A DNA stretch of 64,000 bases from Candidatus Aminicenantes bacterium (GTDB lineage Bacteria > Acidobacteriota > Aminicenantia > UBA2199), in assembly GCA_011049425.1 (NCBI GenBank), contig DSBM01000119.1:24622-88621 (forward strand), read 5' to 3'. Of the stretch, positions 6,838-55,050 are shown piece after piece. Below the pieces are notes generated by a model. It was not told the DNA's origin, did no database searches, and was given only the letters and a program-made list of their open reading frames with translations. Made by a program: the position numbers and the translations under genes. The first letter of the stretch is position 1. Each line of letters starts with the position of its first letter.

Positions 6838-6850
6838 CTTTGGAGGTCTC

Positions 6851-39700: not shown

Positions 39701-39755
39701 TCACCAGGTCCGCAACTCTTTCAGTCGTCCAGGGGTTTTGCCTGTTGCCGCTCAT
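36732..39755 (-). CDS. three-domain protein: APH/hydroxylysine-kinase-like phosphotransferase + M23 peptidase-like domain + class III (PLP) aminotransferase/phospho-lyase-like domain
   Basis: Kinase: [21 protein letters not shown]23: [11 protein letters not shown]...[15 protein letters not shown]: [50 protein letters not shown]; the ATG overlaps the stop of the upstream CBS-GHKL gene. Confidence 0.85.
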
Positions 39756-41102: not shown

Positions 41103-41171
41103 GTGGATCTCTCCTGCCCGGAGTGTAACCCAGAGGCCCATCCAAGTCAACGCCGTCCCCAAGGTAATCTC

Positions 41172-41200
41172 TTGCGCTCCAGGCGGTTCCGGGGTATAGT
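41172..41200 (+). promoter_or_regulatory. sigma70-like promoter for the PHP-GHKL genes
   Basis: TTGCGC (41172-41177), 17-nt spacer, TATAGT (41195-41200), in the 130-bp divergent region. Confidence 0.35.
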
Positions 41201-41232
41201 GGGGCTGCCGCTTGCGGCGGCGGAGAGGAAAC

Positions 41233-41982
41233 GTGATCGTGACTGCGGACCTGCACATTCACTCGGCCTTGTCTCCCTGCGGCAGCCTGGAGATGTCTCC
41301 CCGCGGCGTAGTTGTCCGCGCCCGTGATCTGGGGCTGGACATGATCGCGGTCACGGATCACAATAGCATGGCCAATGTGGACGCCACCGTCGAGGCCGGC
41401 AACAGGGATGGGGTGGTGGTGATCCCCGGCATGGAAGCCCAGACAGCGGAGGGCGTCCACGTACTCTGTTACTTCCCGGATTGCGAAATCGCGCAGGCCT
41501 GTTACCGGGAAATCTATCCCCATCTTCCGGACATCGCCAACAATGCGGATTTCTTTGGAGACCAGGTAATTGTGGATATCGATGATAATGTGACCGGCTT
41601 TGAGCCCCGGGTGCTGCTCAATTCGCTGGACCTGTCGATAGACGAGCTGGTGTTGCGCGTGCGCGCGATCGGGGGGGAAGTAATCCCCGCCCACGTGGAG
41701 AGCAACGGGTTTGGTCTTTTGCCCCACCTGGGAATGGTGCCGCCCCACCTGGATCTGTCCGTCTTGGAGATCGCCTGGCCGCATACCCGCGAAGAGGTGT
41801 TGCGCGAACACCCGGACCTGGCATCATTTTCCCTGGTCTCCCACAGTGATGCCCATTACCTCCGGGACATCGGACGCGCCGCCATGCGGATCGAAATCGC
41901 GGAATGCAGGTTTTCCGCTTTGTTTGCGGCTTATCGCCGGGGATCAGGGAAAGTCCTTTACCGGCAAAGAGAAGACTCGTGA
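41233..41982 (+). CDS. PHP-domain metal-dependent phosphoesterase
   Basis: ADLHIHSALSPCG, IAVTDHNS, VHVLCYF, IPAHVE, VSHSDAH. GTG start 5 nt after GGAGAGG; the track ORF starts at a TTG at 41212. Confidence 0.8.
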   Translation: MIVTADLHIHSALSPCGSLEMSPRGVVVRARDLGLDMIAVTDHNSMANVDATVEAGNRDGVVVIPGMEAQTAEGVHVLCYFPDCEIAQACYREIYPHLPDIANNADFFGDQVIVDIDDNVTGFEPRVLLNSLDLSIDELVLRVRAIGGEVIPAHVESNGFGLLPHLGMVPPHLDLSVLEIAWPHTREEVLREHPDLASFSLVSHSDAHYLRDIGRAAMRIEIAECRFSALFAAYRRGSGKVLYRQREDS

Positions 41983-42524
41983 TCGCAGACCTCAGTTTCC
42001 ACATCGTGGACGTGGTCCAGAACAGTGTCACCGCCGGAGCGGACCGGGTTGAGATCACCATCGAGGTGTCCCGTCGCAACGATCGCATCCGCCTAAAGAT
42101 CAGTGATAACGGCAGGGGAATGGACTCCGAAACCGCACAGCTTGTCCAGGATCCATTCTACACCACCAAGTCGGGCAAAAAGGTGGGCCTGGGGATTCCC
42201 CTGATGAAGGAAACCGCTCTGCAGTGCGACGGGGCTTTCCGATTAACCAGCAAATTGGGCAAAGGAACCAGCATCCGCGCGGAGTACCGGTTGACCCACA
42301 TCGACACCCCGCCCATGGGGCCGGTGGACGAGACGGTGTTTCAACTGATTGCCGCCACTCCCGATGTCGACATGGTACTTGCCTGGATCACCGACGCCGG
42401 GCGTTTCGCAGTGTCCACCCATGAAATTCGCGAGCAGATCGGCGAAATGTCGCTGACTCATCCGGCTGTCCTGTCTTTTCTGCGGAAGTACCTGCGTGAA
42501 AATCTGGAACGCTTGCCCATGTAG
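41979..42524 (+). CDS. stand-alone GHKL/histidine-kinase-like ATPase domain protein (no DHp/His domain)
   Basis: VVQNSVTAGA (N box), ISDNGRGMD (G1), KKVGLGIPL (G2), GKGTSIRAEY. GTG start overlaps the PHP stop (GTGA). Confidence 0.75.
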   Translation: MIADLSFHIVDVVQNSVTAGADRVEITIEVSRRNDRIRLKISDNGRGMDSETAQLVQDPFYTTKSGKKVGLGIPLMKETALQCDGAFRLTSKLGKGTSIRAEYRLTHIDTPPMGPVDETVFQLIAATPDVDMVLAWITDAGRFAVSTHEIREQIGEMSLTHPAVLSFLRKYLRENLERLPM

Positions 42525-42607: not shown

Positions 42608-42646
42608 TCGATACGATCTATATTGTTAATTGCAAAACAGATAATT

Positions 42647-42991
42647 ATGAAGTTATCGGGAATTGTAAACGGTTTGGAGTGTGAGGCGCTGGTCCAGGGT
42701 CCGGATGCGGACGTCCGTGAAGGTTATGCTTCAGACCTGTTGTCGGATGTGATGGCCAACTGCCCTGAAGGTGCCGTATGGCTGACCCTGCAACGCCACC
42801 TGAATGTCATCGCCGTGGCGCAGTTGAAGCGCATCACCGCCATTGTGGTCACCAACGGCGGTCGTCCGGACGAGGCAGTCCTGGAACGGGCCCGTGATGA
42901 AGGTCTGACTGTCCTGACAACCGATTTGGATACGTTTTCAGCAGCGGGCCGGATTCACCGCATGCTTTTCCCCGAACCGTCGTTGAGTTGA
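42647..42991 (+). CDS. DRTGG domain protein (second copy)
   Basis: MKLSGIVNGLECEALV...GYASDLLSDVMANCPEGAVWLT...ITAIVVTNGGRPD. Same pattern as 40755-41102. Confidence 0.72.
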   Translation: MKLSGIVNGLECEALVQGPDADVREGYASDLLSDVMANCPEGAVWLTLQRHLNVIAVAQLKRITAIVVTNGGRPDEAVLERARDEGLTVLTTDLDTFSAAGRIHRMLFPEPSLS

Positions 42992-43102: not shown

Positions 43103-43606
43103 ATGATGCTTCAGACTCGAGCACACACCCCGGAGAATCCGCAATTCCGGCAGCTCCGGGAGTTTATCCATTCCCACCGCAATATCCCCGGCCCGCTGAT
43201 ACTGGTGCTGCAAAGAGCCCAGGAACTTTTTGGTTATCTGCCCAGCGAAGTTCAGGGGTTCGTGGCCAAAGAAATGAATCTGCCCCAATCCGAAATATTC
43301 AGTGTGGTGACATTTTATAATTTCTTCCGCACCCAGCCCATCGGTGACCACATCATAAATGTTTGCCTGGGTACGGCCTGCCACGTAAAAGGGGCTCAGA
43401 GTTTGCTCGATGCCCTGGCAGATGAATTAAAGATACCCGTGGGTGGAACCACGAAAGACGGCATTTTCACCTTGTCGACAGCTCGTTGTTTCGGTGCCTG
43501 TGGTCTGGCCCCTGCCATGATGATCGATGAGGAAGTGTTCGGGAAACTGAATCCCGACAAGGGCCGCAAAGTGATCCGCGAATTCCGCAAAAACTCTAAG
43601 AAATAG
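43103..43606 (+). CDS. NuoE/HydC-type [2Fe-2S] subunit (module 1)
   Basis: VTFYNFF, VCLGTACHVKG, ARCFGACGLAPAMMID. Confidence 0.9.
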   Translation: MMLQTRAHTPENPQFRQLREFIHSHRNIPGPLILVLQRAQELFGYLPSEVQGFVAKEMNLPQSEIFSVVTFYNFFRTQPIGDHIINVCLGTACHVKGAQSLLDALADELKIPVGGTTKDGIFTLSTARCFGACGLAPAMMIDEEVFGKLNPDKGRKVIREFRKNSKK

Positions 43607-43634
43607 CGTATAAGCATACAATCAAGGAGGCACG

Positions 43635-43997
43635 ATGAAGCTTGAAGATCTGAAAAAGATACGGGAGAAGCATCAGAAGGATATGCTTCTTCGTGATGGG
43701 GACGCCCGTGTCCGCGTGGTAGTGGGAATGGGCACTTCCGGCATCGCCGCCGGCGCCAGGGAGACGCTCCGGGCGTTCCTCGAGGAGATCGAGAAACGCA
43801 ACATCACAGGTGTCATTGTCACCCAGGCGGGTGAGCGGGGTCTCAGTTCTCACGAACCCATCGTCACGGTATCTGAGAAGGACAAACCCGGTATCGTGTA
43901 CGGAAATGTCACTGCTGAAGTGGCCCGTAAGATCGTGGCAGAGCATATTGTGAATGGGAGTCCCTTGTCTGATTACGTTCTCGAAGTTACGGAATGA
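43635..43997 (+). CDS. thioredoxin-like ferredoxin-fold protein (HndB/HydD-like) with no cysteines
   Basis: VVVGMGTSGIAAGA...VTQAGERGLSSHEPIVTV has the fold pattern of [2Fe-2S] Trx-like ferredoxins, but the whole 120-aa protein has no Cys. Confidence 0.72.
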   Translation: MKLEDLKKIREKHQKDMLLRDGDARVRVVVGMGTSGIAAGARETLRAFLEEIEKRNITGVIVTQAGERGLSSHEPIVTVSEKDKPGIVYGNVTAEVARKIVAEHIVNGSPLSDYVLEVTE

Positions 43998-44031
43998 TCC
44001 GCCGCCGGCGGATCCTTGAGACGAGGCTTTT

Positions 44032-45822
44032 ATGAAAAAGAGACTGGATGTACTGATTTGCGGGGGCGCTGCATGCATCGCGTCACACAGCCATGATTTC
44101 AAGAACCGGCTCATCAAGGTTGTCAAGGCTCATGAACTGGAAGAAGAGATAAACATCATTGAAACCGGTTGCATGGGACCCTGCGAACTGGGGCCCGTCA
44201 TGGTGGTTTATCCGGATGGTGCCTTTTACATCCGCCTCAAGCCGGAATATGCCGAGCGCATTGTAGAGGAACATTTTCTCAAGGGTCGTCCGGTAGAGGA
44301 GTGGTTGTGGCAGGTTCCGGAAGCCCGTAAAATCGTGGAGGAAAAACGCCAGATCCCTTTTTTTGAGAAACAATGCAAAGTTGTTCTCAAGAACTGTGGC
44401 CGTATTGATCCGGAAAATCTCAACGAGTACATCGGCAATGACGGTTACCAGGCTTTGGCACGCGGCCTGACGGAGATGACCCCGGATGCGGTGATCGAAG
44501 CGGTGACCGCATCGGGACTGCGCGGGCGCGGCGGCGCGGGATTTCCCACAGGATTAAAGTGGAAGCTGGCCCGCCGGGCCGCCGGGGATATCAAGTACGT
44601 GGTCTGCAACGCGGATGAAGGCGATCCCGGCGCGTTCATGGACCGGGCCATCCTGGAAGGCGATCCGCACAGCGTGATCGAAGGCATGATAATTGCCGGA
44701 TATGCCGTGGGCGCTTCCCAGGGGTTCGTGTATATCCGGGCTGAGTATCCTCTGGCGGTACGGCGTTTGCACCGCGCCTTGGAGCAGGCCCGCGAAGCCG
44801 GCCTGTTGGGTAAGGATATCCTGGAGAGCGGATTTTCCTTTGATCTGGAAATCCGCACCGGTGCCGGTGCTTTTGTGTGTGGGGAAGAAACGGCCCTGAT
44901 GGCTTCCGTCGAAGGCCATCGGGGAATGCCCAGGCCCAAGCCGCCTTATCCTTCTGAACAGGGATTATGGGGTAAGCCCACTGTGATCAACAACGTGGAA
45001 ACCCTGGCCAACTTGCGTCATATCGTTATCAATGGCGCTGAGTGGTTTGCCGCCATGGGAACGGCCAAGAGCAAGGGCACCAAGGTGTTCGCCCTTTCGG
45101 GCAACGTAAACAACACCGGCCTGGTGGAAGTCCCCATGGGCATCACCCTGCGCGAGATCGTCTATGAAGTGGGCGGTGGCATTCCCGGCGACAAAGCGCT
45201 CAAGGCCGTTCAGACCGGCGGTCCATCCGGGGGATGCATTCCCGCCGAACACCTCGATACTCCCATCGATTACGAATCCCTGGCGGAACTGGGATCGATC
45301 ATGGGATCCGGCGGGTTGATCGTACTGGACGAAGACAACTGCATGGTGAACATGGCCAAGTTTTTTCTGGAATTCTGCGTGGAAGAATCCTGCGGCCAGT
45401 GTGTTCCGTGCCGGGTCGGTTTAAAGCAGATGCACCGGATCCTGCAGTGGATTGCTGAAGGAAAGGGTGAAACCAAAGATCTGGAGCAGTTGGAACAGAT
45501 GGCTGAAACCGTCAAGGCCACGAGTTTGTGCGGATTGGGACAATCCGCCCCCAACCCCGTACTCTCTACCCTGAAGTACTTCCGCCATGAATACGAGGCC
45601 CACATCCAGGACAAACGTTGTCCCGCTCTGGTGTGCAAGGATCTGACTGCCTACACGGTCCTGGCGGACAAGTGTACGGGATGTACCGCCTGCGCGCGCA
45701 AGTGTCCGGTCGACGCCATCAGTGGAGAAATCAAACAAATCCATTTCATTGATCAGGAGATCTGCATCCATTGCGGTGCCTGTTACGAGGCATGCAAGTT
45801 TGACGCGATTCAACGTCGGTAA
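44032..45822 (+). CDS. NuoF/HydB-type flavoprotein subunit (module 1): N-terminal Trx-like [2Fe-2S], FMN/NAD(H) site, C-terminal 2x[4Fe-4S]
   Basis: LICGGAACIA...TGCMGPCELGP; GLRGRGGAGFPTGLKW; ESCGQCVPCRVG; CTGCTACARKCP; CIHCGACYEACK. Confidence 0.92.
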   Translation: MKKRLDVLICGGAACIASHSHDFKNRLIKVVKAHELEEEINIIETGCMGPCELGPVMVVYPDGAFYIRLKPEYAERIVEEHFLKGRPVEEWLWQVPEARKIVEEKRQIPFFEKQCKVVLKNCGRIDPENLNEYIGNDGYQALARGLTEMTPDAVIEAVTASGLRGRGGAGFPTGLKWKLARRAAGDIKYVVCNADEGDPGAFMDRAILEGDPHSVIEGMIIAGYAVGASQGFVYIRAEYPLAVRRLHRALEQAREAGLLGKDILESGFSFDLEIRTGAGAFVCGEETALMASVEGHRGMPRPKPPYPSEQGLWGKPTVINNVETLANLRHIVINGAEWFAAMGTAKSKGTKVFALSGNVNNTGLVEVPMGITLREIVYEVGGGIPGDKALKAVQTGGPSGGCIPAEHLDTPIDYESLAELGSIMGSGGLIVLDEDNCMVNMAKFFLEFCVEESCGQCVPCRVGLKQMHRILQWIAEGKGETKDLEQLEQMAETVKATSLCGLGQSAPNPVLSTLKYFRHEYEAHIQDKRCPALVCKDLTAYTVLADKCTGCTACARKCPVDAISGEIKQIHFIDQEICIHCGACYEACKFDAIQRR

Positions 45823-45843
45823 CGAGAAAACCAGATGAGGTGA

Positions 45844-46305
45844 ATGATGACGAAAAGAGACGTAATGGAGAGGTATCCCAAGTCGGGGGACAACCTCATC
45901 AGCATCCTGCACGACCTGCAGGACAACAATGAGTGGAATTACTTGTCCGGGGAGGATCTGGCGGCCGCGGCTGATTATCTGCAACTTCCGCACAGTTTTG
46001 TTCATGGCGTCGCGACTTTCTACACCATGTTCAGCCTGGAACCCCGGGGAAAACACGTGATCCGGGTGTGCCAGTCTCCGCCCTGTCATTTGATGGGTGC
46101 GGGCACGATTTCATCTGAACTCGAAAAAATCCTGGGAGTCGGATTCGGTGAGACTACACCGGATCGCCTTTTTACCCTGGAGATGACTTCCTGTCTGGGT
46201 GTATGCGGCGTGGCTCCGGCCGTTATGATCAACGACCAGGTATATGGAAACCTGAACGCTGAACGGCTCGCGGAAATAATCGATGCCAAAAGGAGGGAGA
46301 AGTGA
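45844..46305 (+). CDS. NuoE/FdsG-type [2Fe-2S] subunit (module 2)
   Basis: ATFYTMF, VCQSPPCHLMG, TSCLGVCGVAPAVMIN. Confidence 0.9.
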   Translation: MMTKRDVMERYPKSGDNLISILHDLQDNNEWNYLSGEDLAAAADYLQLPHSFVHGVATFYTMFSLEPRGKHVIRVCQSPPCHLMGAGTISSELEKILGVGFGETTPDRLFTLEMTSCLGVCGVAPAVMINDQVYGNLNAERLAEIIDAKRREK

Positions 46306-47900
46306 GTATCTACAGGGCTCATATTATGCTCCCCGTTGACGAGGGGACGATCCAGGCAGGCGTTTTTGAAATCAAGCGGGAACTGCAGGCGTTGTTGCAA
46401 AAAGAAAACCTGGATCGGGAAATAAAAATTCTCGAGGCCGGCACCATCGGCGTGATCGGCAAAGGCGTGCAGTTGGTGGTATATCCGGACAACGTGACCT
46501 ATTTCAATGTCACCCCCGAAAGCCTGAAAGAGATCGTTGCTGAACATATCGTGAAAGGCCGGGTGGCCAAGAAGCTGGAACATTCGGTCGCGGAAAAGAA
46601 GCTCGAACCGGAAGGTCAAAAATCGATCGGGCTGACCCGGGCACAACAACGCATCGTGCTGAACAAGTGCTGGAAAATCGATCCCGAAAGTATCGACGAT
46701 GCGCTGGCATCCGGAGGGTACCGCGGCATAGAGAAGATTTTCAGCCGGAACATCACTCCCGATCAGGTCATTCAAGAAATAACCGATTCCGGCTTGCGCG
46801 GCCGTGGCGGTGCTGGATTCCCGACCGGCCTGAAATGGACGTTTACCCGCAAAGCCGAGGGAACGGAAAAGTTCATGATCTGCAACGCGGATGAAGGAGA
46901 ACCGGGAACTTTCAAAGATCGACTGATCATGGAAGGTGATCCGCATAAATTGATTGAGGGTATGATGATCGCGGGATATGCGATCGGTGCCGGCAAGGGA
47001 TTCATCTATATCCGGGGAGAATACCAGCTCTCCATTGACCGCATCCAGAAGGCCATAGAACAGGCCCGCGCATACAACCTGCTTGGTGAACGGATTCTGG
47101 ATACTGATTTCTCTTTTGACCTCGAGATCAAGAAAGGCGCCGGGGCGTATGTGTGCGGCGAGGAAACATCGTTGATCGATTCGCTGGAAGGGAAAAGGGG
47201 ATATCCGAGGATCAAGCCGCCTTTCCCGGCCAATAGAGGGTTGTGGCAGAAACCCACCTGTGTCAATAACGTGGAAACATTGGCCAATGTGCCGGAAATC
47301 ATTTACGAAGGAGCCGAATGGTTCCGCAAGTTCGGTACGGAAAAATCAACCGGGACCAAGGTGTTTACCATCCTGGGCCACGTGGAGTTCCCCGGCCTGA
47401 TCGAGACTGAAATGGGAACACCGTTGCGGGAGATTATCTTTTCCTACGGTGGCGGCATAAAAGGCGGGAAGCGGTTCAAGGCGGCACTGGTCGGCGGCGC
47501 GGCAGGGGTGTTTCTTTCCGACAAGCTGCTGGACGTGCCCATGGATTTCGAGAGCCTGAAAGAGAATGCCGCCGTGCTGGGTTCCGGGGCCATTTTGGTG
47601 ATGAACGAGGATGCCGATATGGTGGACATGCTGTCATCCGTTCTCCAGTTTTTCGCACATGAATCCTGCGGACAATGTGCGCCCTGCCGGGTTGGAACCA
47701 GTCAATTGTACGGCTTGATATCCCGCATCCAGAGCGGAGAGGGACGGGAAGAGGACATCGACCAGATGGTGACTATTTCGGAAGCGCTGTTCCAAACGTC
47801 CTTGTGCCCCCTGGGCCAATCCCTGATCATGCCGGTAAAAAGCGCCGTAGAGAATTTCAGACAAGATTTTCTGAATAGAATCAACCATTCAGATAATTAG
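46302..47900 (+). CDS. NuoF/FdsB-type flavoprotein subunit (module 2): Cys-free N-terminal Trx-like domain, no C-terminal ferredoxin domain
   Basis: GLRGRGGAGFPTGLKW; ESCGQCAPCRVG. GTG start overlaps the upstream TGA. Confidence 0.92.
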   Translation: MSIYRAHIMLPVDEGTIQAGVFEIKRELQALLQKENLDREIKILEAGTIGVIGKGVQLVVYPDNVTYFNVTPESLKEIVAEHIVKGRVAKKLEHSVAEKKLEPEGQKSIGLTRAQQRIVLNKCWKIDPESIDDALASGGYRGIEKIFSRNITPDQVIQEITDSGLRGRGGAGFPTGLKWTFTRKAEGTEKFMICNADEGEPGTFKDRLIMEGDPHKLIEGMMIAGYAIGAGKGFIYIRGEYQLSIDRIQKAIEQARAYNLLGERILDTDFSFDLEIKKGAGAYVCGEETSLIDSLEGKRGYPRIKPPFPANRGLWQKPTCVNNVETLANVPEIIYEGAEWFRKFGTEKSTGTKVFTILGHVEFPGLIETEMGTPLREIIFSYGGGIKGGKRFKAALVGGAAGVFLSDKLLDVPMDFESLKENAAVLGSGAILVMNEDADMVDMLSSVLQFFAHESCGQCAPCRVGTSQLYGLISRIQSGEGREEDIDQMVTISEALFQTSLCPLGQSLIMPVKSAVENFRQDFLNRINHSDN

Positions 47901-47914
47901 GCAAGGAGGAAAAC

Positions 47915-50623
47915 ATGTCAGAAAGGGTCATATTATCCATCGACGGCAAAGAGATATCAGCGGAAAACGGGGCCAACCTGCTACAGGTGGCCAGGGATAA
48001 CGGGTTTGATATACCCGGTCTCTGTTACTACAACAAAATTTCTCCCAGTGGGGATTGCAGGTTGTGCGTAGTGAAAATCGAGGGCAGGCCCGGAATGGTT
48101 GCTTCGTGCATGCTTACGGTTGAAGAGGGGATGAAGGTTACGGCGTTTGACAAAGAGCTGGAAGAAAAGCGCAGACTGCTGCTGGAACTGATCCTCTCCG
48201 AGCACAACGACGATTGCATCAACTGTACCCGTGACGGTGACTGCGAGCTTCAGGACCTGGCTTTCCGCTACGGGATTGAAACGGGGAAGCGGCGTTTCCC
48301 CTCGATCTGGCGGGAGATCACCCAATTTCAGGACGAAGGCTCTCCCGTACTGCTGTACGATTCCACCAAGTGCATCAAATGCGCCCGTTGCATTAAAGCC
48401 TGCTATGAAATCCAGGGCAAGGGCGTGTTGAATTTCGCCAACCGCGGTATGGAGACGGTGATCGTCGCCGGCCTGGCGGACTGGAAAGAATCCGAATGTG
48501 ACGGTTGCGGCGAATGTGTGCAGGCCTGCCCGGTGGGGGCCATTGCAGACAAACCGGTATATGGACAGCGCGTACGGAAAAAAGACGCGGAAAAACATGT
48601 TGTTACTACCTGTGCCTATTGTGGAGTCGGCTGTCAGCTCAACCTGTGGGTGAAAGACAACAAGATCATCAAGGTCAAGGGCGAAGACCTGGTTCCCAAT
48701 TTCGGTGCCACCTGCGTCAAGGGCCGCTTCGGCCTCGATTTCGTGGATAAGAGTGATCGCTTGACCACACCCCTGATCAAGGAAAACGGCAAGTTCCGCG
48801 AAGCGGATTGGGACGAAGCCCTTGATCTCGTGGCCCGGCGTTTTTCCCAGATCAAGGAACAGCATGGCCCCAACAGCCTGGCCGGGCTCTCTTCCGCGCG
48901 CTGCACCAATGAAGAGAACTTTGTCTTCCAGAAGTTCATGCGCGCCGTGATCGGTACCAACAACGTGGACCATTGCGCCCGCTTGTGCCATGCGTCAACC
49001 GTCGCCGGTCTGGCCAGTACTTTCGGTTCCGGTGCCATGACCAACTCCATTGAAGAGTTGGAACATGCGGACGTGATCCTGGTAACCGGTTCCAACACAA
49101 CCGAAACCCATCCGGTGATCGCCACCCGGATCAAGCGCGCCGTCCTGTTTCACGGCGCCAAATTGATTGTGGTGGATCCACGCAAGATCGACCTGGTCAA
49201 GTACGCAACCGTATGGATGCAGCAGCGGAACGGAACGGACGTGGCCTGGATGAACGGCATGATGAACGTGATTCTCAATGAGGGTCTGGAGGACAAAGAG
49301 TACATTGCTTCCAGAACAGAGGGTTACGAAGAATTCAAAAAAGTGGTTGAAAAATATACCCCGGAGAGAGTGGAAGAGATCACGGGGATTCCCAGGGAAA
49401 AGATCATTGAAGCCGCGCGGGTTTACGCCGGCGCCGACGCAGCCAGCATTGTCTACTCCATGGGTATTACCCAACATACCACGGGCACGGACAATGTGCG
49501 TTCGACCGCCAACCTGTCCATGTTGACGGGAAATGTGGGCAAAGAATCCGCGGGCGTCAATCCCCTGCGCGGCCAGAACAACGTCCAGGGCGCCTGTGAC
49601 ATGGGGGCGTTGCCCAATGTCTATCCCGGGTACCAGGCGGTAACCCTACCCGCGGCAAAAGAGAAGTTTTCAGGAGCCTGGGGCCGGGAAATGGACGATA
49701 AGGTCGGTTTGACCGTTGTGGAGATGATGAACGCCGCGGCTGAAAAAAAGATCAAGGCCATGTACCTGATGGGTGAGAACCCCATGGTGTCCGATCCCAA
49801 CCTGAACCATGTCAAGGAAGCATTGGAAGCCCTGGATTTTCTGGTTGTTCAGGATATTTTCCTGACCGAGACCGCCCAGATGGCCGACGTGGTGCTTCCC
49901 GTGATGCTTTTTGCCGAGAAAGAAGGCAATTACACCAACACGGAACGGCGGGTCCTCTGGTTGAACAAAGCCGTGGAGGCCCCGGGCAAGTGCCGCGTGG
50001 ATTGGGAAATCGTGTCCGAGATCGCCCGGCGCATGGGTTATGCGATGAATTACGGTTCCATCAAGGATATCATTGATGAGATCAATGCCCTGACGCCGCA
50101 GTATGCGGGAATCACCTACGAGCGCATCATGAACGGTGAACGGTTGCAATGGCCGTGCCCGGATGCCAGTCACCCGGGAACCAAATTCCTGCACAAAGGC
50201 AAGTTCGCCCGCGGCAAGGGTCTGTTCTTTCCGGTTGAGTATATTCCGCCGGCTGAATGGCCGGATGAGGCCTATCCTTTCATGCTTTCAACCGGTCGGA
50301 TTCTCTACCATTACCATACCGGTTCCATGAGCCGGAGGGCGCAGGCGTTGAATGAATACGTTGCGGGTCCCTACATGGAGATGCACGTGCGTGATATGGA
50401 AAGAATGAATATCAAGCACGGCGAAGAGGTGTTGGTATCATCGCGCCGGGGACAGATCAAAACCTTTGCCTGGCAAAGCGACCGCGTGGATGAAAAGTCG
50501 GTATTTATTCCCTTTCATTTCGCGGAAGCCGCGGCCAACGTGTTGACCAATGACGCCCTGGATCCGGTTGCCAAGATCCCGGAATTCAAAGTTGCAGCCT
50601 GTAAGATTGAAAAAATAGGTTAA
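47915..50623 (+). CDS. fdhA: formate dehydrogenase catalytic subunit (FdsA/NuoG-like N-terminus plus Mo/W-bisPGD domain), cysteine type
   Basis: N-terminal [2Fe-2S] CYYNKISPSGDCRLC, [4Fe-4S] motifs CIKCARCIKAC and CDGCGECVQACP, TTCAYCGVGC. Active site NNVDHCARLCHAS, with Cys (48986-48988) where FdhH has Sec. Confidence 0.95.
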   Translation: MSERVILSIDGKEISAENGANLLQVARDNGFDIPGLCYYNKISPSGDCRLCVVKIEGRPGMVASCMLTVEEGMKVTAFDKELEEKRRLLLELILSEHNDDCINCTRDGDCELQDLAFRYGIETGKRRFPSIWREITQFQDEGSPVLLYDSTKCIKCARCIKACYEIQGKGVLNFANRGMETVIVAGLADWKESECDGCGECVQACPVGAIADKPVYGQRVRKKDAEKHVVTTCAYCGVGCQLNLWVKDNKIIKVKGEDLVPNFGATCVKGRFGLDFVDKSDRLTTPLIKENGKFREADWDEALDLVARRFSQIKEQHGPNSLAGLSSARCTNEENFVFQKFMRAVIGTNNVDHCARLCHASTVAGLASTFGSGAMTNSIEELEHADVILVTGSNTTETHPVIATRIKRAVLFHGAKLIVVDPRKIDLVKYATVWMQQRNGTDVAWMNGMMNVILNEGLEDKEYIASRTEGYEEFKKVVEKYTPERVEEITGIPREKIIEAARVYAGADAASIVYSMGITQHTTGTDNVRSTANLSMLTGNVGKESAGVNPLRGQNNVQGACDMGALPNVYPGYQAVTLPAAKEKFSGAWGREMDDKVGLTVVEMMNAAAEKKIKAMYLMGENPMVSDPNLNHVKEALEALDFLVVQDIFLTETAQMADVVLPVMLFAEKEGNYTNTERRVLWLNKAVEAPGKCRVDWEIVSEIARRMGYAMNYGSIKDIIDEINALTPQYAGITYERIMNGERLQWPCPDASHPGTKFLHKGKFARGKGLFFPVEYIPPAEWPDEAYPFMLSTGRILYHYHTGSMSRRAQALNEYVAGPYMEMHVRDMERMNIKHGEEVLVSSRRGQIKTFAWQSDRVDEKSVFIPFHFAEAAANVLTNDALDPVAKIPEFKVAACKIEKIG

Positions 50624-50641
50624 TCCAAAAGGAGGAGACGC

Positions 50642-51472
50642 ATGCAGATGGAGTGCAAGAACCCCGCCACTATTGCTGCTGACCTGGCGAATAGTGTGTG
50701 TGTGAAGAAGGTGAAATCCAGTGTGTTCAACCTGACCGTACTGGGAATCCTGGCCGGCGTTTTTATCGGCTTTGGTGCCTGGCTCGCAACCGTAGTCGGC
50801 CACGACATGGGGGCCAATCTGGGCTTAGGCATGACCAAGTTCATGATGGGCGCCGTCTTTAGCGTCGGCCTGATGCTGGTGGTCATTGCCGGAGCGGAAC
50901 TGTTCACCGGCAACAACCTGATCGTATTGAGCGTGTTAGAGAAAAAGGCGAGCTTTGGCGGACTGATGCGCAACTGGTCGATCGTGTATGTTGCCAACCT
51001 GGTCGGCTCCGTGTTGCTGGCGCTGATTATTTTTTACGGCGGCTTGTGGAAAATGGGAGGAAATGCGGTCGGGAATTTTGCTATGGGCATCGCCAATGGA
51101 AAAGTCGACCTGGCTTTCTGGCCGGCGTTATTCCGGGCCATTGGCTGTAACTGGCTGGTATGCTTGGCTGTATGGATGGCGCTCTCTTCAAGAGACACCG
51201 TGGGTAAAGTATTTGCCATCTTTTTCCCCATCATGGCCTTTGTCGCGTCTGGATTTGAGCATAGCATTGCCAACATGTTCTTTATCCCCATGGGCTTGCT
51301 GCTCAAGACCGTCGGACTGGCCGGTGTTGACGCTTCTTCCAACTTGAATATGTACGGATTCCTGGTCAGAAACGAAATCCCGGTCACACTGGGCAATATC
51401 GTCGGCGGAGCCTTTTTCGTGGCTACGCTGTACTGGTCGGTGTATATCCGCAAACAGAAAGAGATCGCGTAA
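50642..51472 (+). CDS. focA: formate/nitrite transporter family protein
   Basis: Six-TM FNT pattern: GAELFTGNN..., FEHSIANMFFIP. Confidence 0.9.
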   Translation: MQMECKNPATIAADLANSVCVKKVKSSVFNLTVLGILAGVFIGFGAWLATVVGHDMGANLGLGMTKFMMGAVFSVGLMLVVIAGAELFTGNNLIVLSVLEKKASFGGLMRNWSIVYVANLVGSVLLALIIFYGGLWKMGGNAVGNFAMGIANGKVDLAFWPALFRAIGCNWLVCLAVWMALSSRDTVGKVFAIFFPIMAFVASGFEHSIANMFFIPMGLLLKTVGLAGVDASSNLNMYGFLVRNEIPVTLGNIVGGAFFVATLYWSVYIRKQKEIA

Positions 51473-51490
51473 GTATCGGGGGAACTGAAA

Positions 51491-51524
51491 AGCGGGAAAG
51501 CCTCAGGCTTTCCCGCTTTTTTTT
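51491..51524 (+). terminator. Rho-independent terminator after focA
   Basis: AGCGGGAAAGCC-TCA-GGCTTTCCCGCT, a 12-bp perfect stem followed by T8. Confidence 0.85.
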
Positions 51525-51551: not shown

Positions 51552-52280
51552 ATGCAAGAGATGCAGGAAATGTTGGAAATTCAGCGCTACCGCGACGGAA
51601 AAATCACGGCCTTGCAGGATGCGGTGGTGGTGGAGCGGCTGGTTTCATTGCGGATCAACAACGAAATCACTATTCATCACTCCATGTCTCCGGCATTGTA
51701 TAGGGAATTTGCAACCGGCTTTATCTTGACTTCAGGGATGGTCACGTCTCCTGGGGATATATCCCAAGTATTGGTTGATGGGGATACCATCAACGTCCAT
51801 GTGCGAAACTTACAGGTTCCAAACGCAAGCGGCAAAGGCGTCGGCGGGGGATGGATGCCACTTGATATCACGAAAAAAAAGACTCCTTTGCACCTTCTCC
51901 GACTCGATTTAAAAATCCTTGAGAGTTTGTTTGGGGATTTTTCACAGCGTTCAGCGATTTTCCGCCAAACCGGAGGCATTCATTCCGCGGCTCTATCGGA
52001 CGGGTCCCAGGTAGTCTGTTTTGTTGAGGATATCGGGCGCCACAATGCGGTTGACAAGGTGGTGGGAATGGCGATACTGGCTGGTAAAGACCTTTCCGGC
52101 CTGGTGTTGTTGACCAGTGGCCGCATATCAGCTGAAATTGTCAACAAGGCATATCAGGTCCGAATCCCGGGTGTGGTCTCGCATTCCGCTCCCACCAGCC
52201 TGGCGGTGCAAATGGGAACGCGATACGGTATGAGACTGGTGGGGTTTTTACGGGGAAACCGTTTTAATATCTATGCATGA
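51552..52280 (+). CDS. fdhD: formate dehydrogenase accessory protein FdhD/FdsC family
   Basis: FRQTGGIHSAAL, EDIGRHNAVDKVVG, LLTSGRISAEIV, SAPTSLAV. Confidence 0.85.
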   Translation: MQEMQEMLEIQRYRDGKITALQDAVVVERLVSLRINNEITIHHSMSPALYREFATGFILTSGMVTSPGDISQVLVDGDTINVHVRNLQVPNASGKGVGGGWMPLDITKKKTPLHLLRLDLKILESLFGDFSQRSAIFRQTGGIHSAALSDGSQVVCFVEDIGRHNAVDKVVGMAILAGKDLSGLVLLTSGRISAEIVNKAYQVRIPGVVSHSAPTSLAVQMGTRYGMRLVGFLRGNRFNIYA

Positions 52281-52332
52281 ACAGCGGCACGGTCTGCCGG
52301 GCCCCTGTTCATGGCTGCACATCTGCTGCAGG

Positions 52333-53451
52333 CTAGAATCCGTAGATCACGCTGAGGATGAGCTGGTTGGTTTTGGCTTTATCGTCCACCTGGAGATAAC
52401 CACTCATGAAATGGGTGTATTCCAGGCCGAAGGAAACTTTCCCGCCCATGTGGTATTGAATGCCACTGAAAATACAGTTGGTGTTTTGAAGCGTGGCCAG
52501 GCCCAATTGTTCATTTTCGGTCAGGTTCTCAAAAGCGTAACCCAGCCATAGGCTGGCCTTTTTCAGTTTGTACAGGATTTCCGCCCAGAAACTCATTACT
52601 TTCACGCCATCAAAAGCGTTGTTAGGTGTATCCTGAAAAACTCCGGCCCGTGAAAGGAATACCGAGAGATTCTCGCCCATGCCGAATTCGCCCCGCACGA
52701 TCAACTTGTCTGTTGCCGGGATGATCCAGTCCAGGCTGATTCCCGCGATGTTTACATCTGATTCTACGCCGAATGTGCTATGGCGGTCCTTGCCATAGGC
52801 TGTGGAAAGACCCAGCTTGGTTTGTTTCTTGTTACCGAGGGTTAGTCCCAGTCTGGCCTGGAGGATGGGCATGCCGGTTGCGATGGCGCCCGGCACCGTG
52901 GGGTCATTCAAACTCAAGGCGAAATTAAAATTTTCCTGCGTCACGGTGATGCGGAGCTGGGCCCGGCGGAATCCCAGGTTTCCCGTGTTCCACATGTAGC
53001 CGTTGGTCATCATGGTTGTGGGGCCGAGAGGAGAGAACAGGTCCCAGAACTGACCGGCCAGGACGGTGACGGTTCCTTTGGAGAGGGTCAGATAAGCGTG
53101 ACGGGTGCGAAACTTCATCTGGTTGCGGTTGGCACCATCAAACAGGTCCAGCTCAAGCGTACCCTTGACCTTCCAATCTCCGGGGATTTTGGGCCCGACG
53201 ATGTTCAAGCCGAAGCGGCTGTTCATGGCGGTGAAACCGGTGGCGTTGTCGCTGCCGGCCACGGCGAAACGGGGAGCGATCAGGCTGTTGGTCGGGTTGT
53301 CCTGGAAGGTGGCGTCAAATTTAAAGAAACCATACAGATCAACCTTGTACATCTCCGTGTCCACGAGTTTGATCGCGGCTAGCCCGGGAGAAACAAGGCT
53401 GATGAAAAGAATCGGGGCCAGACAATACAGAAGCAAGCGTTTCTGATACAT
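52333..53451 (-). CDS. outer-membrane porin-like beta-barrel protein
   Basis: GGAGAA RBS then ATG at 53451. Signal peptide LLLYCLAPILFISLVSPGLAA, alternating amphipathic strands, C-terminal ...LSVIYGF. Confidence 0.7.
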   Translation of the reverse strand: MYQKRLLLYCLAPILFISLVSPGLAAIKLVDTEMYKVDLYGFFKFDATFQDNPTNSLIAPRFAVAGSDNATGFTAMNSRFGLNIVGPKIPGDWKVKGTLELDLFDGANRNQMKFRTRHAYLTLSKGTVTVLAGQFWDLFSPLGPTTMMTNGYMWNTGNLGFRRAQLRITVTQENFNFALSLNDPTVPGAIATGMPILQARLGLTLGNKKQTKLGLSTAYGKDRHSTFGVESDVNIAGISLDWIIPATDKLIVRGEFGMGENLSVFLSRAGVFQDTPNNAFDGVKVMSFWAEILYKLKKASLWLGYAFENLTENEQLGLATLQNTNCIFSGIQYHMGGKVSFGLEYTHFMSGYLQVDDKAKTNQLILSVIYGF

Positions 53452-53650: not shown

Positions 53651-54268
53651 ATGCGGCAGAAAAAATCCGTTACCTGTGCCATCCTGGCTGGAGGCGCCAG
53701 CAGGCGGTTTGGAGAAAACAAGCTGGCTTTGGAGTTCTGTGGCAAGAGCTTCCTGCAACACATTGTCGCTACTTTGACCGCAGTCTCCGAAAACATCATT
53801 GTAGCTGGGGAGAATTGTGAAAATTTGAATGTGGCGCCATACCTTTGTTTTTGTGATCGTTTCGCACTTCATGCATCGATTGTCGGAATTCATACAGCGC
53901 TGTGCCACGCTCCGACGGAGGCCGTACTGGTTGTGGCCGGAGATCTGCCGTTACTGAAAGTAGAGTTGCTGCAACTCTTGATCTCGCGGTTTTTTTCCAC
54001 TAAAAGTGATGCAGTTGTTCCAGTCGTGAACAACTACATGGAACCCCTGGTGGCCGTGTATGCCAGGAAAAACCGAGCGGTAATCGAGGAGAACATTTAC
54101 CAGCGAAAACTAAAAATCGCAGATTTTATCGGTCGTATCAATACTTCTGTCTTATCTGAGAAAGAAGTTAGGGCCGTGGATCCCGAATTACAGTCTTTTT
54201 TGAATATCAATACGCCGCATGATTACCGCAAATTGCTCGATAAGTTTTCTACTGCCGATAAAGCATGA
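53651..54268 (+). CDS. mobA: molybdenum cofactor guanylyltransferase
   Basis: CAILAGGASRRFGENKLA, VVAGDLPLL. Confidence 0.8.
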   Translation: MRQKKSVTCAILAGGASRRFGENKLALEFCGKSFLQHIVATLTAVSENIIVAGENCENLNVAPYLCFCDRFALHASIVGIHTALCHAPTEAVLVVAGDLPLLKVELLQLLISRFFSTKSDAVVPVVNNYMEPLVAVYARKNRAVIEENIYQRKLKIADFIGRINTSVLSEKEVRAVDPELQSFLNINTPHDYRKLLDKFSTADKA

Positions 54269-54378: not shown

Positions 54379-55050
54379 TTGGCAAAAAACAAAGTACCAA
54401 AAGTATCGGTACCGGTCATGCGCCGTTTGCCGGTGTACCACCACTTCCTGACCGGATTGGCTGAAAAGGGAATTGAACGGGTTTCTTCTACAACAGTGGC
54501 CCATCAATTCGGTTATGATCCCATCAAAGTTCGCAAAGACCTGGCCTTGACCGGCGCGGTGGGACGCCCCCGGGTCGGATTTGTCACCCGTGACCTTTTG
54601 AAGCACATTGAAGCATTCCTGGGATGGAGTCAATCCCAGGAGGCGGTACTTGCCGGATGCGGCGCCCTGGGATCAGCCCTGCTGGGGTACGAGGGGTTTT
54701 CCCAATGCGGTTGGGAGATCCTGGTAGCGTTCGACAAAAATCCCGATCGCGTGGGATCCCGAATTCATGGCAAGCCGGTGATGCCGCTGGAAAGCCTTTC
54801 CGAAGTCTGCCGCCGCATGAAGGTTCAAGTTGGCATTATCACAGCGCCGGCAAAATCAGCCCAGAAAATCGCGGACATGATGGTGGATGCCGGTCTGCGG
54901 GGAATTTGGAACTTTGCGCCCACATCGGTGCAGGTGCCCGAAGGCGTGATTCTTCAACAGGAAAATCTGTTGGCTTCACTCACCATTCTGGGGTTGAAAC
55001 TGAAGTTCATGAAGTCCGAGCAAAAACCGGGTCTGGTGATAGATGAGTAA
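54379..55050 (+). CDS. rex: redox-sensing transcriptional repressor Rex
   Basis: VPVMRRLPVYHHFL, ISSTTVAHQFGYDPIKVRKDL, Rossmann LAGCGALGSALLGY. TTG start. Confidence 0.9.
   Translation: MAKNKVPKVSVPVMRRLPVYHHFLTGLAEKGIERVSSTTVAHQFGYDPIKVRKDLALTGAVGRPRVGFVTRDLLKHIEAFLGWSQSQEAVLAGCGALGSALLGYEGFSQCGWEILVAFDKNPDRVGSRIHGKPVMPLESLSEVCRRMKVQVGIITAPAKSAQKIADMMVDAGLRGIWNFAPTSVQVPEGVILQQENLLASLTILGLKLKFMKSEQKPGLVIDE

What the first reader, a model, noticed from the sequence alone, without database searches (positions are those of the whole stretch)
43103..50623. Two different NuoE/NuoF modules in series in front of one FdsA-type formate dehydrogenase
Module 1 has the subunit pattern of HydC/HydB from electron-bifurcating [FeFe]-hydrogenases and Hnd-type enzymes. 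It consists of NuoE-like (43103), a small Trx-like protein (43635) and a 596-aa NuoF-like protein (44032). That NuoF has an N-terminal Cys4 Trx-like [2Fe-2S] domain and a C-terminal 2x[4Fe-4S] ferredoxin domain.

Module 2 is NuoE-like (45844) plus a 532-aa NuoF-like protein (46302). This NuoF has a Cys-free N-domain and no ferredoxin domain. Together with the 902-aa catalytic subunit it matches FdsG-FdsB-FdsA of NAD-dependent Mo-FDHs (Cupriavidus, Rhodobacter).

All genes are 14-34 nt apart or overlapping, with a single terminator after focA. No hydrogenase large subunit is present for module 1.

Possible explanations are a bifurcating or confurcating FDH that uses two flavin sites (NADH plus ferredoxin), or an orphan HydBC-like module that docks to another enzyme.
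Basis: partly seen in the sequence, partly recalled or inferred. Interest (0 to 1): 0.65.

Follow-up and report, generated by a model that had tools for sequence, protein, structure and literature searches.

The report
Formate dehydrogenase with two flavoprotein modules
One operon encodes a formate dehydrogenase preceded by two different NADH-handling flavoprotein modules, one of the electron-bifurcating kind and one of the plain kind. The same paired cassette recurs across several bacterial phyla in front of formate dehydrogenases or hydrogenases, and I found no published description of it.

Summary
In detail: E1-B-F1-E2-F2-FdhA-FocA lie on the + strand at 43103-51472, 14-34 nt apart or overlapping, with one strong terminator (51487-51521).

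F1/E1 meet every sequence criterion for a bifurcating HydB/HydC (BfuBC) core. F2/E2 meet every criterion for a non-bifurcating NuoF/NuoE-type pair. F2 has the architecture of FdsB, but by sequence it is closer to HydB-type proteins. B is a cofactor-less HydD-like protein.

The arrangement is not a one-off. The same tandem occurs in 10 of 80 reference-genome loci seeded on F1 and in 8 of 9 sampled F2 relatives. It sits in front of FdhA (Cys or Sec), [FeFe]-HydA or [NiFe] hydrogenase subunits. The F1 and F2 copies co-diversify while the catalytic partner changes. All genes are under strong purifying selection. So module 1 is not a hydrogenase leftover.

Best reading: a cytoplasmic, dual-mode FDH/CO2 reductase coupled either to NAD+ plus ferredoxin or to NAD+ alone, probably on an FdhA dimer. 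Whether both modules sit in one complex is unproven.

I found no published description. I rate it a new variant of a known kind (the Bfu/HydABC family).

The parts
41212..41982 (+). PHP-domain protein gene. It belongs to the accessory or regulatory gene set that travels with the cassette.
   Evidence: Pfam PF02811, 7e-9. The gene is called at the equivalent position in L001. The same PHP-HATPase-DRTGG set lies upstream in L083-85, L088, L099 and L100.
41979..42524 (+). Histidine-kinase-like ATPase (HATPase_c), the 'HisK' gene typical of HydABC-type loci.
   Evidence: Pfam PF02518, 5e-16. The start is taken from the gene call; the ORF itself begins at 41904. PMC9304861 (Fig. 1 legend) lists hisK and hydD in the A. 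mobile operon as not being part of the holoenzyme.
42623..42991 (+). DRTGG-domain protein gene.
   Evidence: Pfam PF07085, 2e-9. It lies immediately upstream of E1 in L083-85, L101 and L102.
43103..43606 (+). E1: a HydC/BfuC-type [2Fe-2S] subunit, with Cys88/93/129/133.
   Evidence: PF01257, 9e-46. The best solved relatives are NfnC and HydC at 145 bits, against 74-101 bits for NuoE/FdsG. dN/dS is 0.05-0.06.
43635..43997 (+). B: a HydD/BfuD-like thioredoxin-like protein with no cysteine, so no cluster.
   Evidence: It aligns to the N-terminal Trx-like domain of NfnB (E 4.6e-15) and StnB, with every Cys ligand replaced. It has zero Cys. It has the lowest dN/dS of the operon, 0.03-0.04. It is Cys-less throughout the window's clade. 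A. woodii HydD is also predicted to be cofactor-less (PMC6288185).
44032..45822 (+). F1: a bifurcating-type HydB/BfuB. It has an N-terminal Cys4 site (B5), an FMN/NADH core, an N3-type [4Fe-4S] site, a Cys530/535 linker site and a C-terminal 2x[4Fe-4S] domain.
   Evidence: Pfam and NCBIfam hits. Full-length match to A. mobile NiFe-HydB (848 bits) and A. woodii HydB (841 bits). It carries the Losey bifurcating signatures PGAFMDR, GAGAF and GGPSG. dN/dS is 0.06.
45844..46305 (+). E2: a NuoE-like [2Fe-2S] subunit, with Cys76/81/117/121.
   Evidence: PF01257, 1e-47. It is intermediate between HydC (124 bits) and NuoE (103-107 bits). It is 38% identical to E1. dN/dS is 0.09-0.16.
46302..47900 (+). 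F2: a non-bifurcating NuoF-type flavoprotein. It has a Cys-free Trx-like N-domain, an FMN/NADH core and an N3-type [4Fe-4S] site, and it ends straight after that domain.
   Evidence: It carries the signatures PGTFKDR, GAGAY and GGAAG, with N3 ligands Cys456/459/462/502. It has no Fer4 hits. PDB scores are HydB 566 bits, Nqo1 432 bits and FdsB 332-386 bits. It is 49% identical to F1. The family is large, at 63-86% identity. dN/dS is 0.07.
47915..50623 (+). FdhA: an FdsA-type Mo/W-bis-MGD formate dehydrogenase alpha subunit with a NuoG-like N-terminus. Cluster sites are a [2Fe-2S], a His97/Cys101/104/110 [4Fe-4S], 2x[4Fe-4S] and Cys233/236/240/267. The active site is Cys358-His359.
   Evidence: TIGR01591 at 898 bits. 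It aligns full-length to R. capsulatus FdsA (741 bits), and CARLCH aligns to CARLXH of a solved FDH.
50642..51472 (+). FocA-type formate channel.
   Evidence: PF01226, 8e-81; TIGR00790 at 252 bits. It also follows FdhA in L017 (opposite strand), L059, L091-94, L101 and L102.
51487..51521 (+). Intrinsic terminator that closes the operon.
   Evidence: A 16-bp stem with 8 G-C pairs and a 3-nt loop, followed by TTTTTTTT.
51552..52280 (+). FdhD, the sulfurtransferase that matures FDH.
   Evidence: PF02634, 5e-58; TIGR00129 at 175 bits, above its cut-off.
53651..54268 (+). MobA-like nucleotidyltransferase (MGD cofactor synthesis).
   Evidence: PF12804, 8e-29. It holds the same position in L083-85.
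54379..55050 (+). Rex-like redox-sensing repressor gene. It is context only; no operator was found.
   Evidence: Put_DNA-bind_N plus CoA_binding. No canonical Rex box lies near the operon.

Best explanation
The operon encodes a cytoplasmic formate dehydrogenase/CO2 reductase. Its single catalytic subunit is served by two different diaphorase modules.

Shown here:
- FdhA is an FdsA-type, Cys-ligated Mo/W-bis-MGD subunit. It carries the full NuoG-like Fe-S chain, including the His-ligated cluster.
- E1-B-F1 is a complete HydC/HydD/HydB (BfuBC-type) bifurcating module.
- E2-F2 is an intact NuoEF-type module with FMN, an NADH site, the N3 cluster and a [2Fe-2S] site. It lacks every bifurcation-specific cluster and carries the non-bifurcating residue signatures.
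- The two modules are inherited together as a cassette in front of FDH, [FeFe] or [NiFe] catalytic subunits.

Inferred:
- Each FdhA N-terminal domain docks one module.
- With F1/E1 bound, the enzyme couples 2 formate <-> 2 CO2 to NAD+ plus ferredoxin (bifurcation/confurcation).
- With F2/E2 bound, it couples formate <-> CO2 to NAD+ alone.
- That gives a two-gear enzyme whose NADH:ferredoxin stoichiometry can follow the formate level and the redox state of the two pools.
- FdsA-type and HydA-type subunits dimerise through their His-ligated clusters, so the two lobes probably share one electron network on an (FdhA)2 core.
- FocA moves formate across the membrane. FdhD and the MobA-like protein mature the cofactor. 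The PHP, HATPase and DRTGG genes are accessory or regulatory.
For: Anatomy and spacing.

Bifurcating versus non-bifurcating typing:
- The criteria come from PMC7311640. I applied them to the window and to every tandem locus.
- The first F always reads AFM/F, and in the full-length copies it keeps at least 10 C-terminal Cys. L004 and L088 carry shorter first F copies (553-554 aa) with only 2.
- The second F always reads TFK/Y with 0-2 C-terminal Cys.
- PDB affinities agree.

Recurrence:
- 10 of 80 species-level loci seeded on F1 are tandem.
- 8 of 9 sampled F2-family proteins are tandem.
- Partners are FdhA with Cys (window, L017, L083-85, L091-93, L101, L102), FdhA with Sec (L022, L023, L095), [FeFe]-HydA (L026, L086-88, L097, L099, L100) and NuoG-like A plus [NiFe] small and large subunits (L007, L013, L071).

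Co-inheritance: the F1 and F2 trees show matching clades while the partner swaps within each clade.

Selection: dN/dS is 0.03-0.16 for all seven genes.

Structural precedent: RcFDH is a dimer held only by FdsA-FdsA contacts, with the His/Cys3 cluster at the interface. TmHydABC protomers are coupled through the His-ligated cluster. The window's FdhA has H97-C101-C104-C110.
Against: - There is no transcript, protein or activity data. No RNA runs hold this sequence.
- The operon has only one NuoG-like docking domain for two modules, so the modules may compete rather than coexist.
- E-F(non-bifurcating)-HydA exists as a self-contained unit in a 79% relative (L089/90). B-E2-F2-FdhA exists without E1/F1 (L094). 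So E2-F2-A can evidently work alone.
- A always directly follows F2, never F1.
- Multimer modelling could not be run.
- The nucleotide specificity (NAD or NADP) of each flavoprotein is unknown.
Confidence: 0.6

Rival explanations
1. E2-F2-FdhA is the complete enzyme, a simple NAD+-dependent FDH of the FdsGBA or Hyd1ABC type. E1-B-F1 is a co-transcribed but separate bifurcating module that docks onto another BfuA-type or unrelated partner encoded elsewhere. That partner could be a hydrogenase, or the arrangement could resemble a BfuA-less 'Type 4' Bfu.
For: - E'-F'-HydA occurs as a stand-alone block in L089/90.
- B-E2-F2-FdhA occurs without E1/F1 in L094.
- FdhA always abuts F2.
- BfuA-less Bfu enzymes have been proposed (PMC9304861).
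Against: - No other NuoG-like or hydrogenase gene lies in the 64-kb window.
- The tandem stays tight, with 21 nt or overlaps between F1 and E2, across at least three phyla and three kinds of catalytic partner.
- F1 and F2 co-diversify.
- In most tandem loci no second A-type gene is nearby.
Confidence: 0.2
2. The two flavoproteins differ in nucleotide specificity, for example F2 for NADP(H) and F1 for NAD(H). The complex would then link formate to three pools (NAD, NADP and ferredoxin), like a built-in Nfn/Stn-type transhydrogenase.
For: - Some cassette variants carry a GltD-like NAD(P)H/FAD domain on F1 (L007, L073, L099, L101, L102). That shows NADPH chemistry gets grafted onto this cassette.
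- Stn/Nfn-Bfu enzymes are the closest solved relatives of B and among the closest of F1.
Against: - Both F1 and F2 keep the same CGEE and GRGGAGF motifs.
- I found no specificity determinant.
- An earlier idea that F2 must be the third-substrate site in loci with a 'dead' A subunit failed once [NiFe] subunits were found downstream.
Confidence: 0.1
3. F2/E2 is a degenerate structural paralogue of F1/E1, for instance a scaffold or assembly factor, with no catalytic role.
For: F2 has lost the B2-B5 clusters relative to its HydB-like relatives.
Against: - The FMN motif, the NADH-site motif and all four N3 ligands are intact.
- dN/dS is 0.07, the same as for F1 and FdhA.
- The F2 family is large and conserved at 63-86% identity.
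- E'-F'-HydA units rely on this type alone.
Confidence: 0.05

Closest known systems
Type 1 Fdh-Bfu (predicted BfuC-BfuB-BfuA/FdhA, e.g. Carboxydothermus hydrogenoformans; Schut et al. 2022, PMC9304861)
   Same: A BfuC plus BfuB core carrying all the bifurcation-specific clusters, and a BfuA whose C-terminal part is a pterin FDH domain. The proposed reaction links formate, NAD and ferredoxin.
   Different: In the window a second, non-bifurcating E2-F2 pair lies between BfuB and FdhA, and a cofactor-less BfuD is present. The paper makes no mention of a second B/C pair.
NAD+-dependent FdsABG(D) formate dehydrogenase of Rhodobacter capsulatus / Cupriavidus necator (6TGA, 6VW7)
   Same: FdhA aligns full-length to FdsA (741 bits), including the His/Cys3 interface cluster and the Cys-His active site. 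F2 has FdsB's architecture, a cluster-less Trx-like N-domain plus a NuoF core. E2 resembles FdsG. FdhD corresponds to FdsC.
   Different: - F2 is closer by sequence to HydB-type proteins than to FdsB (566 against 332-386 bits).
- None of the nine operon ORFs scanned matched an FdsD family.
- An additional bifurcating module is present.
- The host is probably an anaerobe, and FocA is linked.
Electron-bifurcating HydABC(D) [FeFe]-hydrogenases (T. maritima 7P5H, A. woodii 7Q4V, T. kivui 8A6T, Ca. tengcongensis HydABCD) and A. mobile NiFe-HydABCSL (7T2R)
   Same: E1, B and F1 are full-length homologues of HydC, HydD and HydB. The loci share the same accessory hisK-like, PHP and DRTGG genes. In relatives the identical cassette precedes HydA or the NiFe A/S/L subunits.
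   Different: The catalytic subunit here is an FDH, and the cassette carries an extra non-bifurcating pair.
Non-bifurcating NADH-dependent enzymes: S. wolfei Hyd1ABC, S. aciditrophicus HydAB, 'sub-type II BfuABC' (PMC7311640, PMC11406978)
   Same: F2 shows the same loss of B3, B4 and B5 and the same T-x-K, Y and non-GGPSG signatures. The E-F-A gene order matches. In L089/90 the same type forms a stand-alone E'-F'-HydA unit.
   Different: Here it is fused into one operon with a bifurcating module. The cited papers treat the two types as separate enzymes that merely co-occur in genomes.
HylABC-FdhF2 of Gottschalkia acidurici and HytA-E/FdhA of C. autoethanogenum (characterised bifurcating FDH complexes)
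   Same: Formate oxidation coupled to NAD(P)+ and ferredoxin through a HydBC-type core.
   Different: Those enzymes use a separate HydA-like scaffold and a separate Sec-containing FdhF, with a single NuoEF-like pair. Here the scaffold and the FDH are one Cys-type polypeptide and there are two pairs.

Membership tests
Bfu family (bifurcating BfuBC core; PMC9304861) - applied to F1/E1 | BfuB with an FMN/NAD(H) domain and the B1 [4Fe-4S] cluster | tested here: met
   PF01512 at 1e-48 and PF10589 at 2e-35. GRGGAGF at residues 165-171; Cys454/457/460/500.
Bfu family - applied to F1/E1 | Extra clusters: B5 (N-terminal [2Fe-2S]), B3/B4 (C-terminal 2x[4Fe-4S]) and the B2/Zn linker site | tested here: met
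   Cys10/15/47/51, Cys530/535, Cys548/551/554/558 and Cys578/581/584/588. Fer4 hits. End-to-end alignment to 7t2r_B and 7q4v_B. Metal content was not tested.
Bfu family - applied to F1/E1 | BfuC with the C1 [2Fe-2S] cluster; BfuA with the A1/A2 clusters | tested here: met
   E1 has four Cys and its best hits are NfnC/HydC. FdhA has Fer2_4, NADH-G_4Fe-4S_3 and Fer4_Nqo3 domains.
Bfu family - applied to F2/E2 | Conservation of clusters B2-B5 | tested here: not met
   F2 has only 8 Cys. None lies in the N-domain cluster positions, and the protein ends right after the N3 domain. No Fer4 hit.
Bifurcating vs non-bifurcating beta subunits (Losey et al. 2020, PMC7311640) | A/E-x-M at the NADH site, F near the FMN, and GGPSG in the SLBB region mark the bifurcating type. 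T/S-x-K/S/A, Y and no GGPSG mark the non-bifurcating type. | tested here: met
   F1 has AFM, F and GGPSG. F2 has TFK, Y and GGAAG. The first two criteria hold for both copies in all tandem loci.
FdsABG(D) NAD-dependent FDH | An FdsA-type alpha subunit with a NuoG-like N-terminus, a bis-MGD domain and a Cys/Sec-His active site | tested here: met
   741 bits over residues 5-898 to 6tg9_A, and CARLCH aligned to CARLXH. TIGR01591 at 898 bits, above its 666-bit cut-off.
FdsABG(D) NAD-dependent FDH | An FdsB orthologue as the beta subunit | tested here: inconclusive
   The architecture is the same. But F2 scores 566 bits to HydB against 332-386 bits to FdsB, and the N-domain aligns only to HydB. No tree including FdsB reference sequences could be built.
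FdsABG(D) NAD-dependent FDH | An FdsD subunit | tested here: not met
   None of the nine operon ORFs, including the 92-aa ORF at 52273-52551, hit an FdsD family in Pfam or NCBIfam. FdsD is reported to be present in only part of the family.
Type 1 Fdh-Bfu | A three-subunit C-B-A enzyme with one flavoprotein | tested here: not met
   Two E/F pairs precede FdhA.
HylABC-FdhF2 type bifurcating FDH | A separate HydA-like scaffold without an H-cluster, plus a separate Sec-containing FdhF | tested here: not met
   The scaffold and the FDH are a single 902-aa ORF with Cys at the active site.
Any of the above | Demonstrated ferredoxin- and NAD-coupled formate turnover, and subunit stoichiometry | not testable with these tools
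   This needs purified protein. No transcript data are available either.

The most novel reading that the evidence does not exclude
The tandem encodes one hetero-oligomeric 'two-gear' redox machine. An (A)2 core is electrically coupled through its His-ligated [4Fe-4S] clusters. It carries one bifurcating lobe (E1-B-F1) and one non-bifurcating lobe (E2-F2), so two FMN/NADH sites and one ferredoxin site share one electron network with the catalytic centre. The enzyme could then shift continuously between NADH-plus-ferredoxin and NADH-only coupling. The same asymmetric architecture would be a general, previously unrecognised class of Bfu enzyme used with FDH, [FeFe]- and [NiFe]-hydrogenase modules in Aminicenantes-like, Chloroflexota, Caldisericota and Spirochaetota lineages.
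Probability: 0.3. Interest if true: 0.8.

Novelty: new variant of a known kind. Interest (0 to 1): 0.62.

Why it matters
HydABC/Bfu enzymes are the least understood class of electron-bifurcating enzymes. The field separates 'bifurcating' from 'non-bifurcating' homologues and treats them as different enzymes.

A conserved, widely distributed cassette that places one of each in front of a single catalytic subunit suggests that many uncultured anaerobes in sludge, sediment and subsurface habitats build formate dehydrogenases and hydrogenases able to switch, or blend, NADH-only and NADH-plus-ferredoxin coupling.

If so, two things follow:
- It would provide a natural asymmetric complex for dissecting how the bifurcating lobe is gated.

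If the two modules instead form separate enzymes on the same alpha subunit, the arrangement is still a compact form of metabolic flexibility that annotation pipelines currently label as duplicate 'NuoE/NuoF' genes.

Tried and rejected
1. Rex operator. A search for TTGTGAA-N6-TTCACAA with up to 3 mismatches gave one hit at 58042, far from the operon and fewer than expected by chance. There is no evidence for Rex control.
2. Transcript evidence. Only four sludge-metagenome DNA runs hold about 5% of the sequence's words, and no RNA run holds it.
3. Metagenome scan with F2. The peptide patterns were too specific and returned only 8 loci. I used exact-protein context look-ups instead.
4. 'F2 must be the third-substrate (NADPH) site', based on loci whose A subunit has a degenerate Mo domain. 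I dropped this when [NiFe] small and large subunit genes turned up directly downstream.
5. F2 as an FdsB orthologue. The PDB scores do not support it.
6. SLBB-motif regex. It picked up a neighbouring GG..G in many rows, including the window's own F1 and F2. I re-read the motif directly for the window proteins and do not use that column for other loci.
7. Literature. Five full-text searches and ten papers read in part gave no description of the tandem. Two genome papers merely mention multiple nuoEF sets, one of them near fdh genes. This is absence from the searched library, not proof of absence.
8. Promoter and terminator scan inside the operon. Counts are at the level expected by chance.

Full report
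**1. What is there**

On the + strand lie seven tightly packed genes.

| Gene | Coordinates |
|---|---|
| E1 | 43103-43606 |
| B | 43635-43997 |
| F1 | 44032-45822 |
| E2 | 45844-46305 |
| F2 | 46302-47900 (GTG start) |
| FdhA | 47915-50623 |
| FocA | 50642-51472 |

- The gaps are 28, 34, 21, -4, 14 and 18 nt, and each gene has an AGGAGG-type ribosome-binding site.
- A 16-bp-stem terminator follows at 51487-51521, then fdhD at 51552-52280.
- Directly upstream, in the same direction, lie PHP, HATPase_c and DRTGG genes. Downstream lie a porin gene on the minus strand, a MobA-like gene and a Rex-like gene.
- Domain hits are far beyond chance, with E-values from 1e-46 to 1e-270.
- No H-cluster or credible [NiFe] signature occurs anywhere in the 64-kb window.

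**2. Typing the two modules**

Losey et al. (PMC7311640) give residue criteria that separate bifurcating from non-bifurcating beta subunits.

| Feature | F1 | F2 |
|---|---|---|
| NADH site | PGAFMDR | PGTFKDR |
| FMN site | GAGAF | GAGAY |
| SLBB motif | GGPSG | GGAAG |
| N-terminal Trx-like domain | Cys10/15/47/51 | no Cys |
| C-terminal region | ten Cys (linker site plus 2x[4Fe-4S]) | ends right after the N3-cluster domain |
| Type | bifurcating | non-bifurcating |

- F2 still keeps GRGGAGF and the N3 ligands Cys456/459/462/502, so its core looks functional.
- Against solved structures, F1 matches A. mobile NiFe-HydB (848 bits) and A. woodii HydB (841 bits) end to end.
- F2's best matches are the same HydB proteins (566 and 531 bits, aligned from residue 1). 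They are well ahead of Nqo1 (432 bits) and true FdsB (386 and 332 bits).
- So F2 has the architecture of FdsB. R. capsulatus FdsB also has a cluster-less Trx-like N-domain. By sequence, however, F2 is a cluster-stripped relative of BfuB. It corresponds to the 'sub-type II BfuB' that lacks B3, B4 and B5 in PMC11406978.
- E1 is clearly of the HydC/NfnC type (145 bits against 74-101 bits for NuoE/FdsG). E2 is intermediate.
- B aligns to the Trx-like N-domain of NfnB and StnB (E 4.6e-15) with every cluster cysteine replaced. A. woodii HydD is likewise predicted to be cofactor-less.
- F1 and F2 are 49% identical, and E1 and E2 are 38% identical.

**3. The catalytic subunit**

- FdhA aligns full-length to R. 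capsulatus FdsA (741 bits).
- Its CARLCH aligns to CARLXH of a solved FDH, so residue 358 is Cys rather than Sec.
- It has all the NuoG-like cluster motifs, including H97-x3-C101-x2-C104-x5-C110.

**4. The arrangement is recurrent**

- I scanned one genome per GTDB species with F1 as the query, then annotated the 80 best loci with the window's own proteins. Ten had the same order, E1-B-F1-E2-F2.
- The exact-protein contexts of nine F2-family members gave eight tandems.
- The gene after F2 differs from locus to locus:

| Catalytic partner | Loci |
|---|---|
| FdhA with Cys | window, its 79-87% relatives L083-85 and L091-93, L017, L101, L102 |
| FdhA with Sec (ORF split at TGA) | L022, L023, L095 |
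| [FeFe]-HydA followed by maturases | L026, L086-88, L097, L099, L100 |
| NuoG-like A, then [NiFe] small and large subunits | L007, L013, L071 (Pfam-confirmed) |

- In every tandem the first F has the bifurcating signature and the second has the non-bifurcating one.
- A neighbour-joining tree of 96 F cores puts all bifurcating-type proteins in one clade. The tandem F1s and tandem F2s each split into a 'window-type' group and a 'Chloroflexota' group. The two copies therefore co-diversify while the catalytic partner swaps within each group.
- Against three relatives, dN/dS is 0.03-0.16 for all seven genes. B has the lowest value.

**5.

- The stated refuter was a HydA next to comparable loci, with module 1 as its partner. 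That is not what relatives show. HydA takes FdhA's place downstream of both modules. Module 1 is therefore not a stranded hydrogenase part, and the pair is a portable cassette.
- The second unit can also stand alone. A 79% relative carries an extra E'-F'(non-bifurcating)-HydA-maturase block just downstream of its FDH operon. L094 has B-E2-F2-FdhA(Sec)-FocA without E1/F1.
- A always abuts F2.
- So E2-F2-A looks like the core trimer, and E1-B-F1 looks like an upstream add-on.

**6. Mechanism (inferred)**

- RcFDH is a dimer held only by FdsA-FdsA contacts. The His/Cys3 cluster sits at the interface, and A3-A4-A4'-A3' lie within electron-transfer distance.
- T. maritima HydABC protomers are coupled in the same way, about 9 Å apart.
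- In both enzymes the diaphorase docks on the N-terminal end of the A subunit.
- The simplest model is that each FdhA binds one module.
  - F1/E1 gives NAD+ plus ferredoxin coupling.
  - F2/E2 gives NAD+-only coupling.
  - On an (FdhA)2 core the two lobes could share electrons.
- Physiologically this would let a fermenter in sludge dispose of NADH as formate at low formate levels, and use confurcation at higher levels. FocA would carry the formate across the membrane.
- The source appears to be sludge metagenomes. The nearest labelled relatives are Aminicenantes and Acidobacteria MAGs. I did not verify the taxonomy independently.
- None of this is demonstrated. No RNA data exist, and no multimer modelling was possible.

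**7. Comparison and novelty**

- The closest described systems are the predicted Type 1 Fdh-Bfu, FdsABG(D), HydABC(D) and NiFe-HydABCSL, and the non-bifurcating Hyd1ABC or 'sub-type II' enzymes.
- The Bfu survey (PMC9304861) and the Hydrogenedentota study (PMC11406978) do not describe a second B/C pair in one cluster. The latter notes only that nearly all strains carrying the non-bifurcating sub-type II also have at least one bifurcating sub-type.
- Two genome papers mention multiple nuoEF sets, one of them close to fdh genes, without analysing them.
- I therefore rate this a new variant of a known kind. It is common in metagenomes but, as far as I could search, uncharacterised.

Noticed in passing
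window 43103-51472 compared with L093 and L083: Synonymous divergence is uneven along the operon. dS is 1.95 for E1 and about 0.9-1.1 for B, F1, E2 and F2, but 0.54 for FdhA and 0.22 for focA. This suggests a recombination breakpoint inside the operon, with the 3' half shared more recently.
   Followed up: partly
L089/L090 8546-17975 (equivalent to window 54268-54379): A 79% relative has an extra block between the MobA-like and Rex-like genes: E'-F'(non-bifurcating, 541 aa)-HydA-TM1266-like-Lyase_1-HydF-HydG-HydE. The window lacks this block.
   Followed up: partly
L088 16963-19608; L097 16495-19194: In two tandem-HydA loci, a NuoG-type FdhA (900-903 aa) with no E/F genes of its own lies downstream. 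In L088 it follows the hydrogenase maturases. That makes two catalytic subunits for two flavoprotein modules, possibly a hydrogenase/FDH hybrid.
   Followed up: no
L007 9920-13072; L073 9926-13060; L099, L101 and L102, about 4460-7540: In these tandem cassettes F1 is 1024-1051 aa long. It carries a GltD-like Fer4_20 plus Pyr_redox_2 (FAD/NAD(P)H) extension in place of the 2x[4Fe-4S] ferredoxin domain, which would give three flavin sites per cassette.
   Followed up: partly
L026 5127-6950: The HydA that replaces FdhA in the closest reference-genome relative has TSCSP instead of TSCCP in H-cluster motif L1. The same Cys-to-Ser change has been noted for Ca. tengcongensis and I. album HydA (PMC3362086).
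   Followed up: partly
window 36732-41258 (minus strand): A divergently oriented cluster sits here: a 1007-aa APH + Peptidase_M23 + class-III aminotransferase fusion, a CBS + HATPase_c protein, and a small DRTGG/PucR-like protein. It is conserved next to the operon in L083-85, and the CBS-HATPase and DRTGG pair also appears in L099 and L100. Its function is unknown.
   Followed up: no
L094 1389-7383: B-E2-F2-FdhA(Sec)-FocA occurs without any E1 or F1, and an unrelated 290-aa gene lies upstream. So the Cys-less HydD-like protein can accompany the non-bifurcating unit alone.
   Followed up: partly
B homologues across loci: The HydD-like protein has no Cys in the window's clade (L003, L004, L007, L026, L034, L083-L097). 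It keeps three Cys in the aligned region in most other lineages, including all but two (L034, L073) of the Chloroflexota-group tandems.
   Followed up: partly
window 19272-23282: A 1336-aa ORF with a PilY1 beta-propeller domain (type IV pilus tip adhesin-like).
   Followed up: no
window 52273-52551: A 92-aa ORF overlaps the end of fdhD by 8 nt and has no family hit. It was not called as a gene in the public contigs, so it is probably not a gene.
   Followed up: partly
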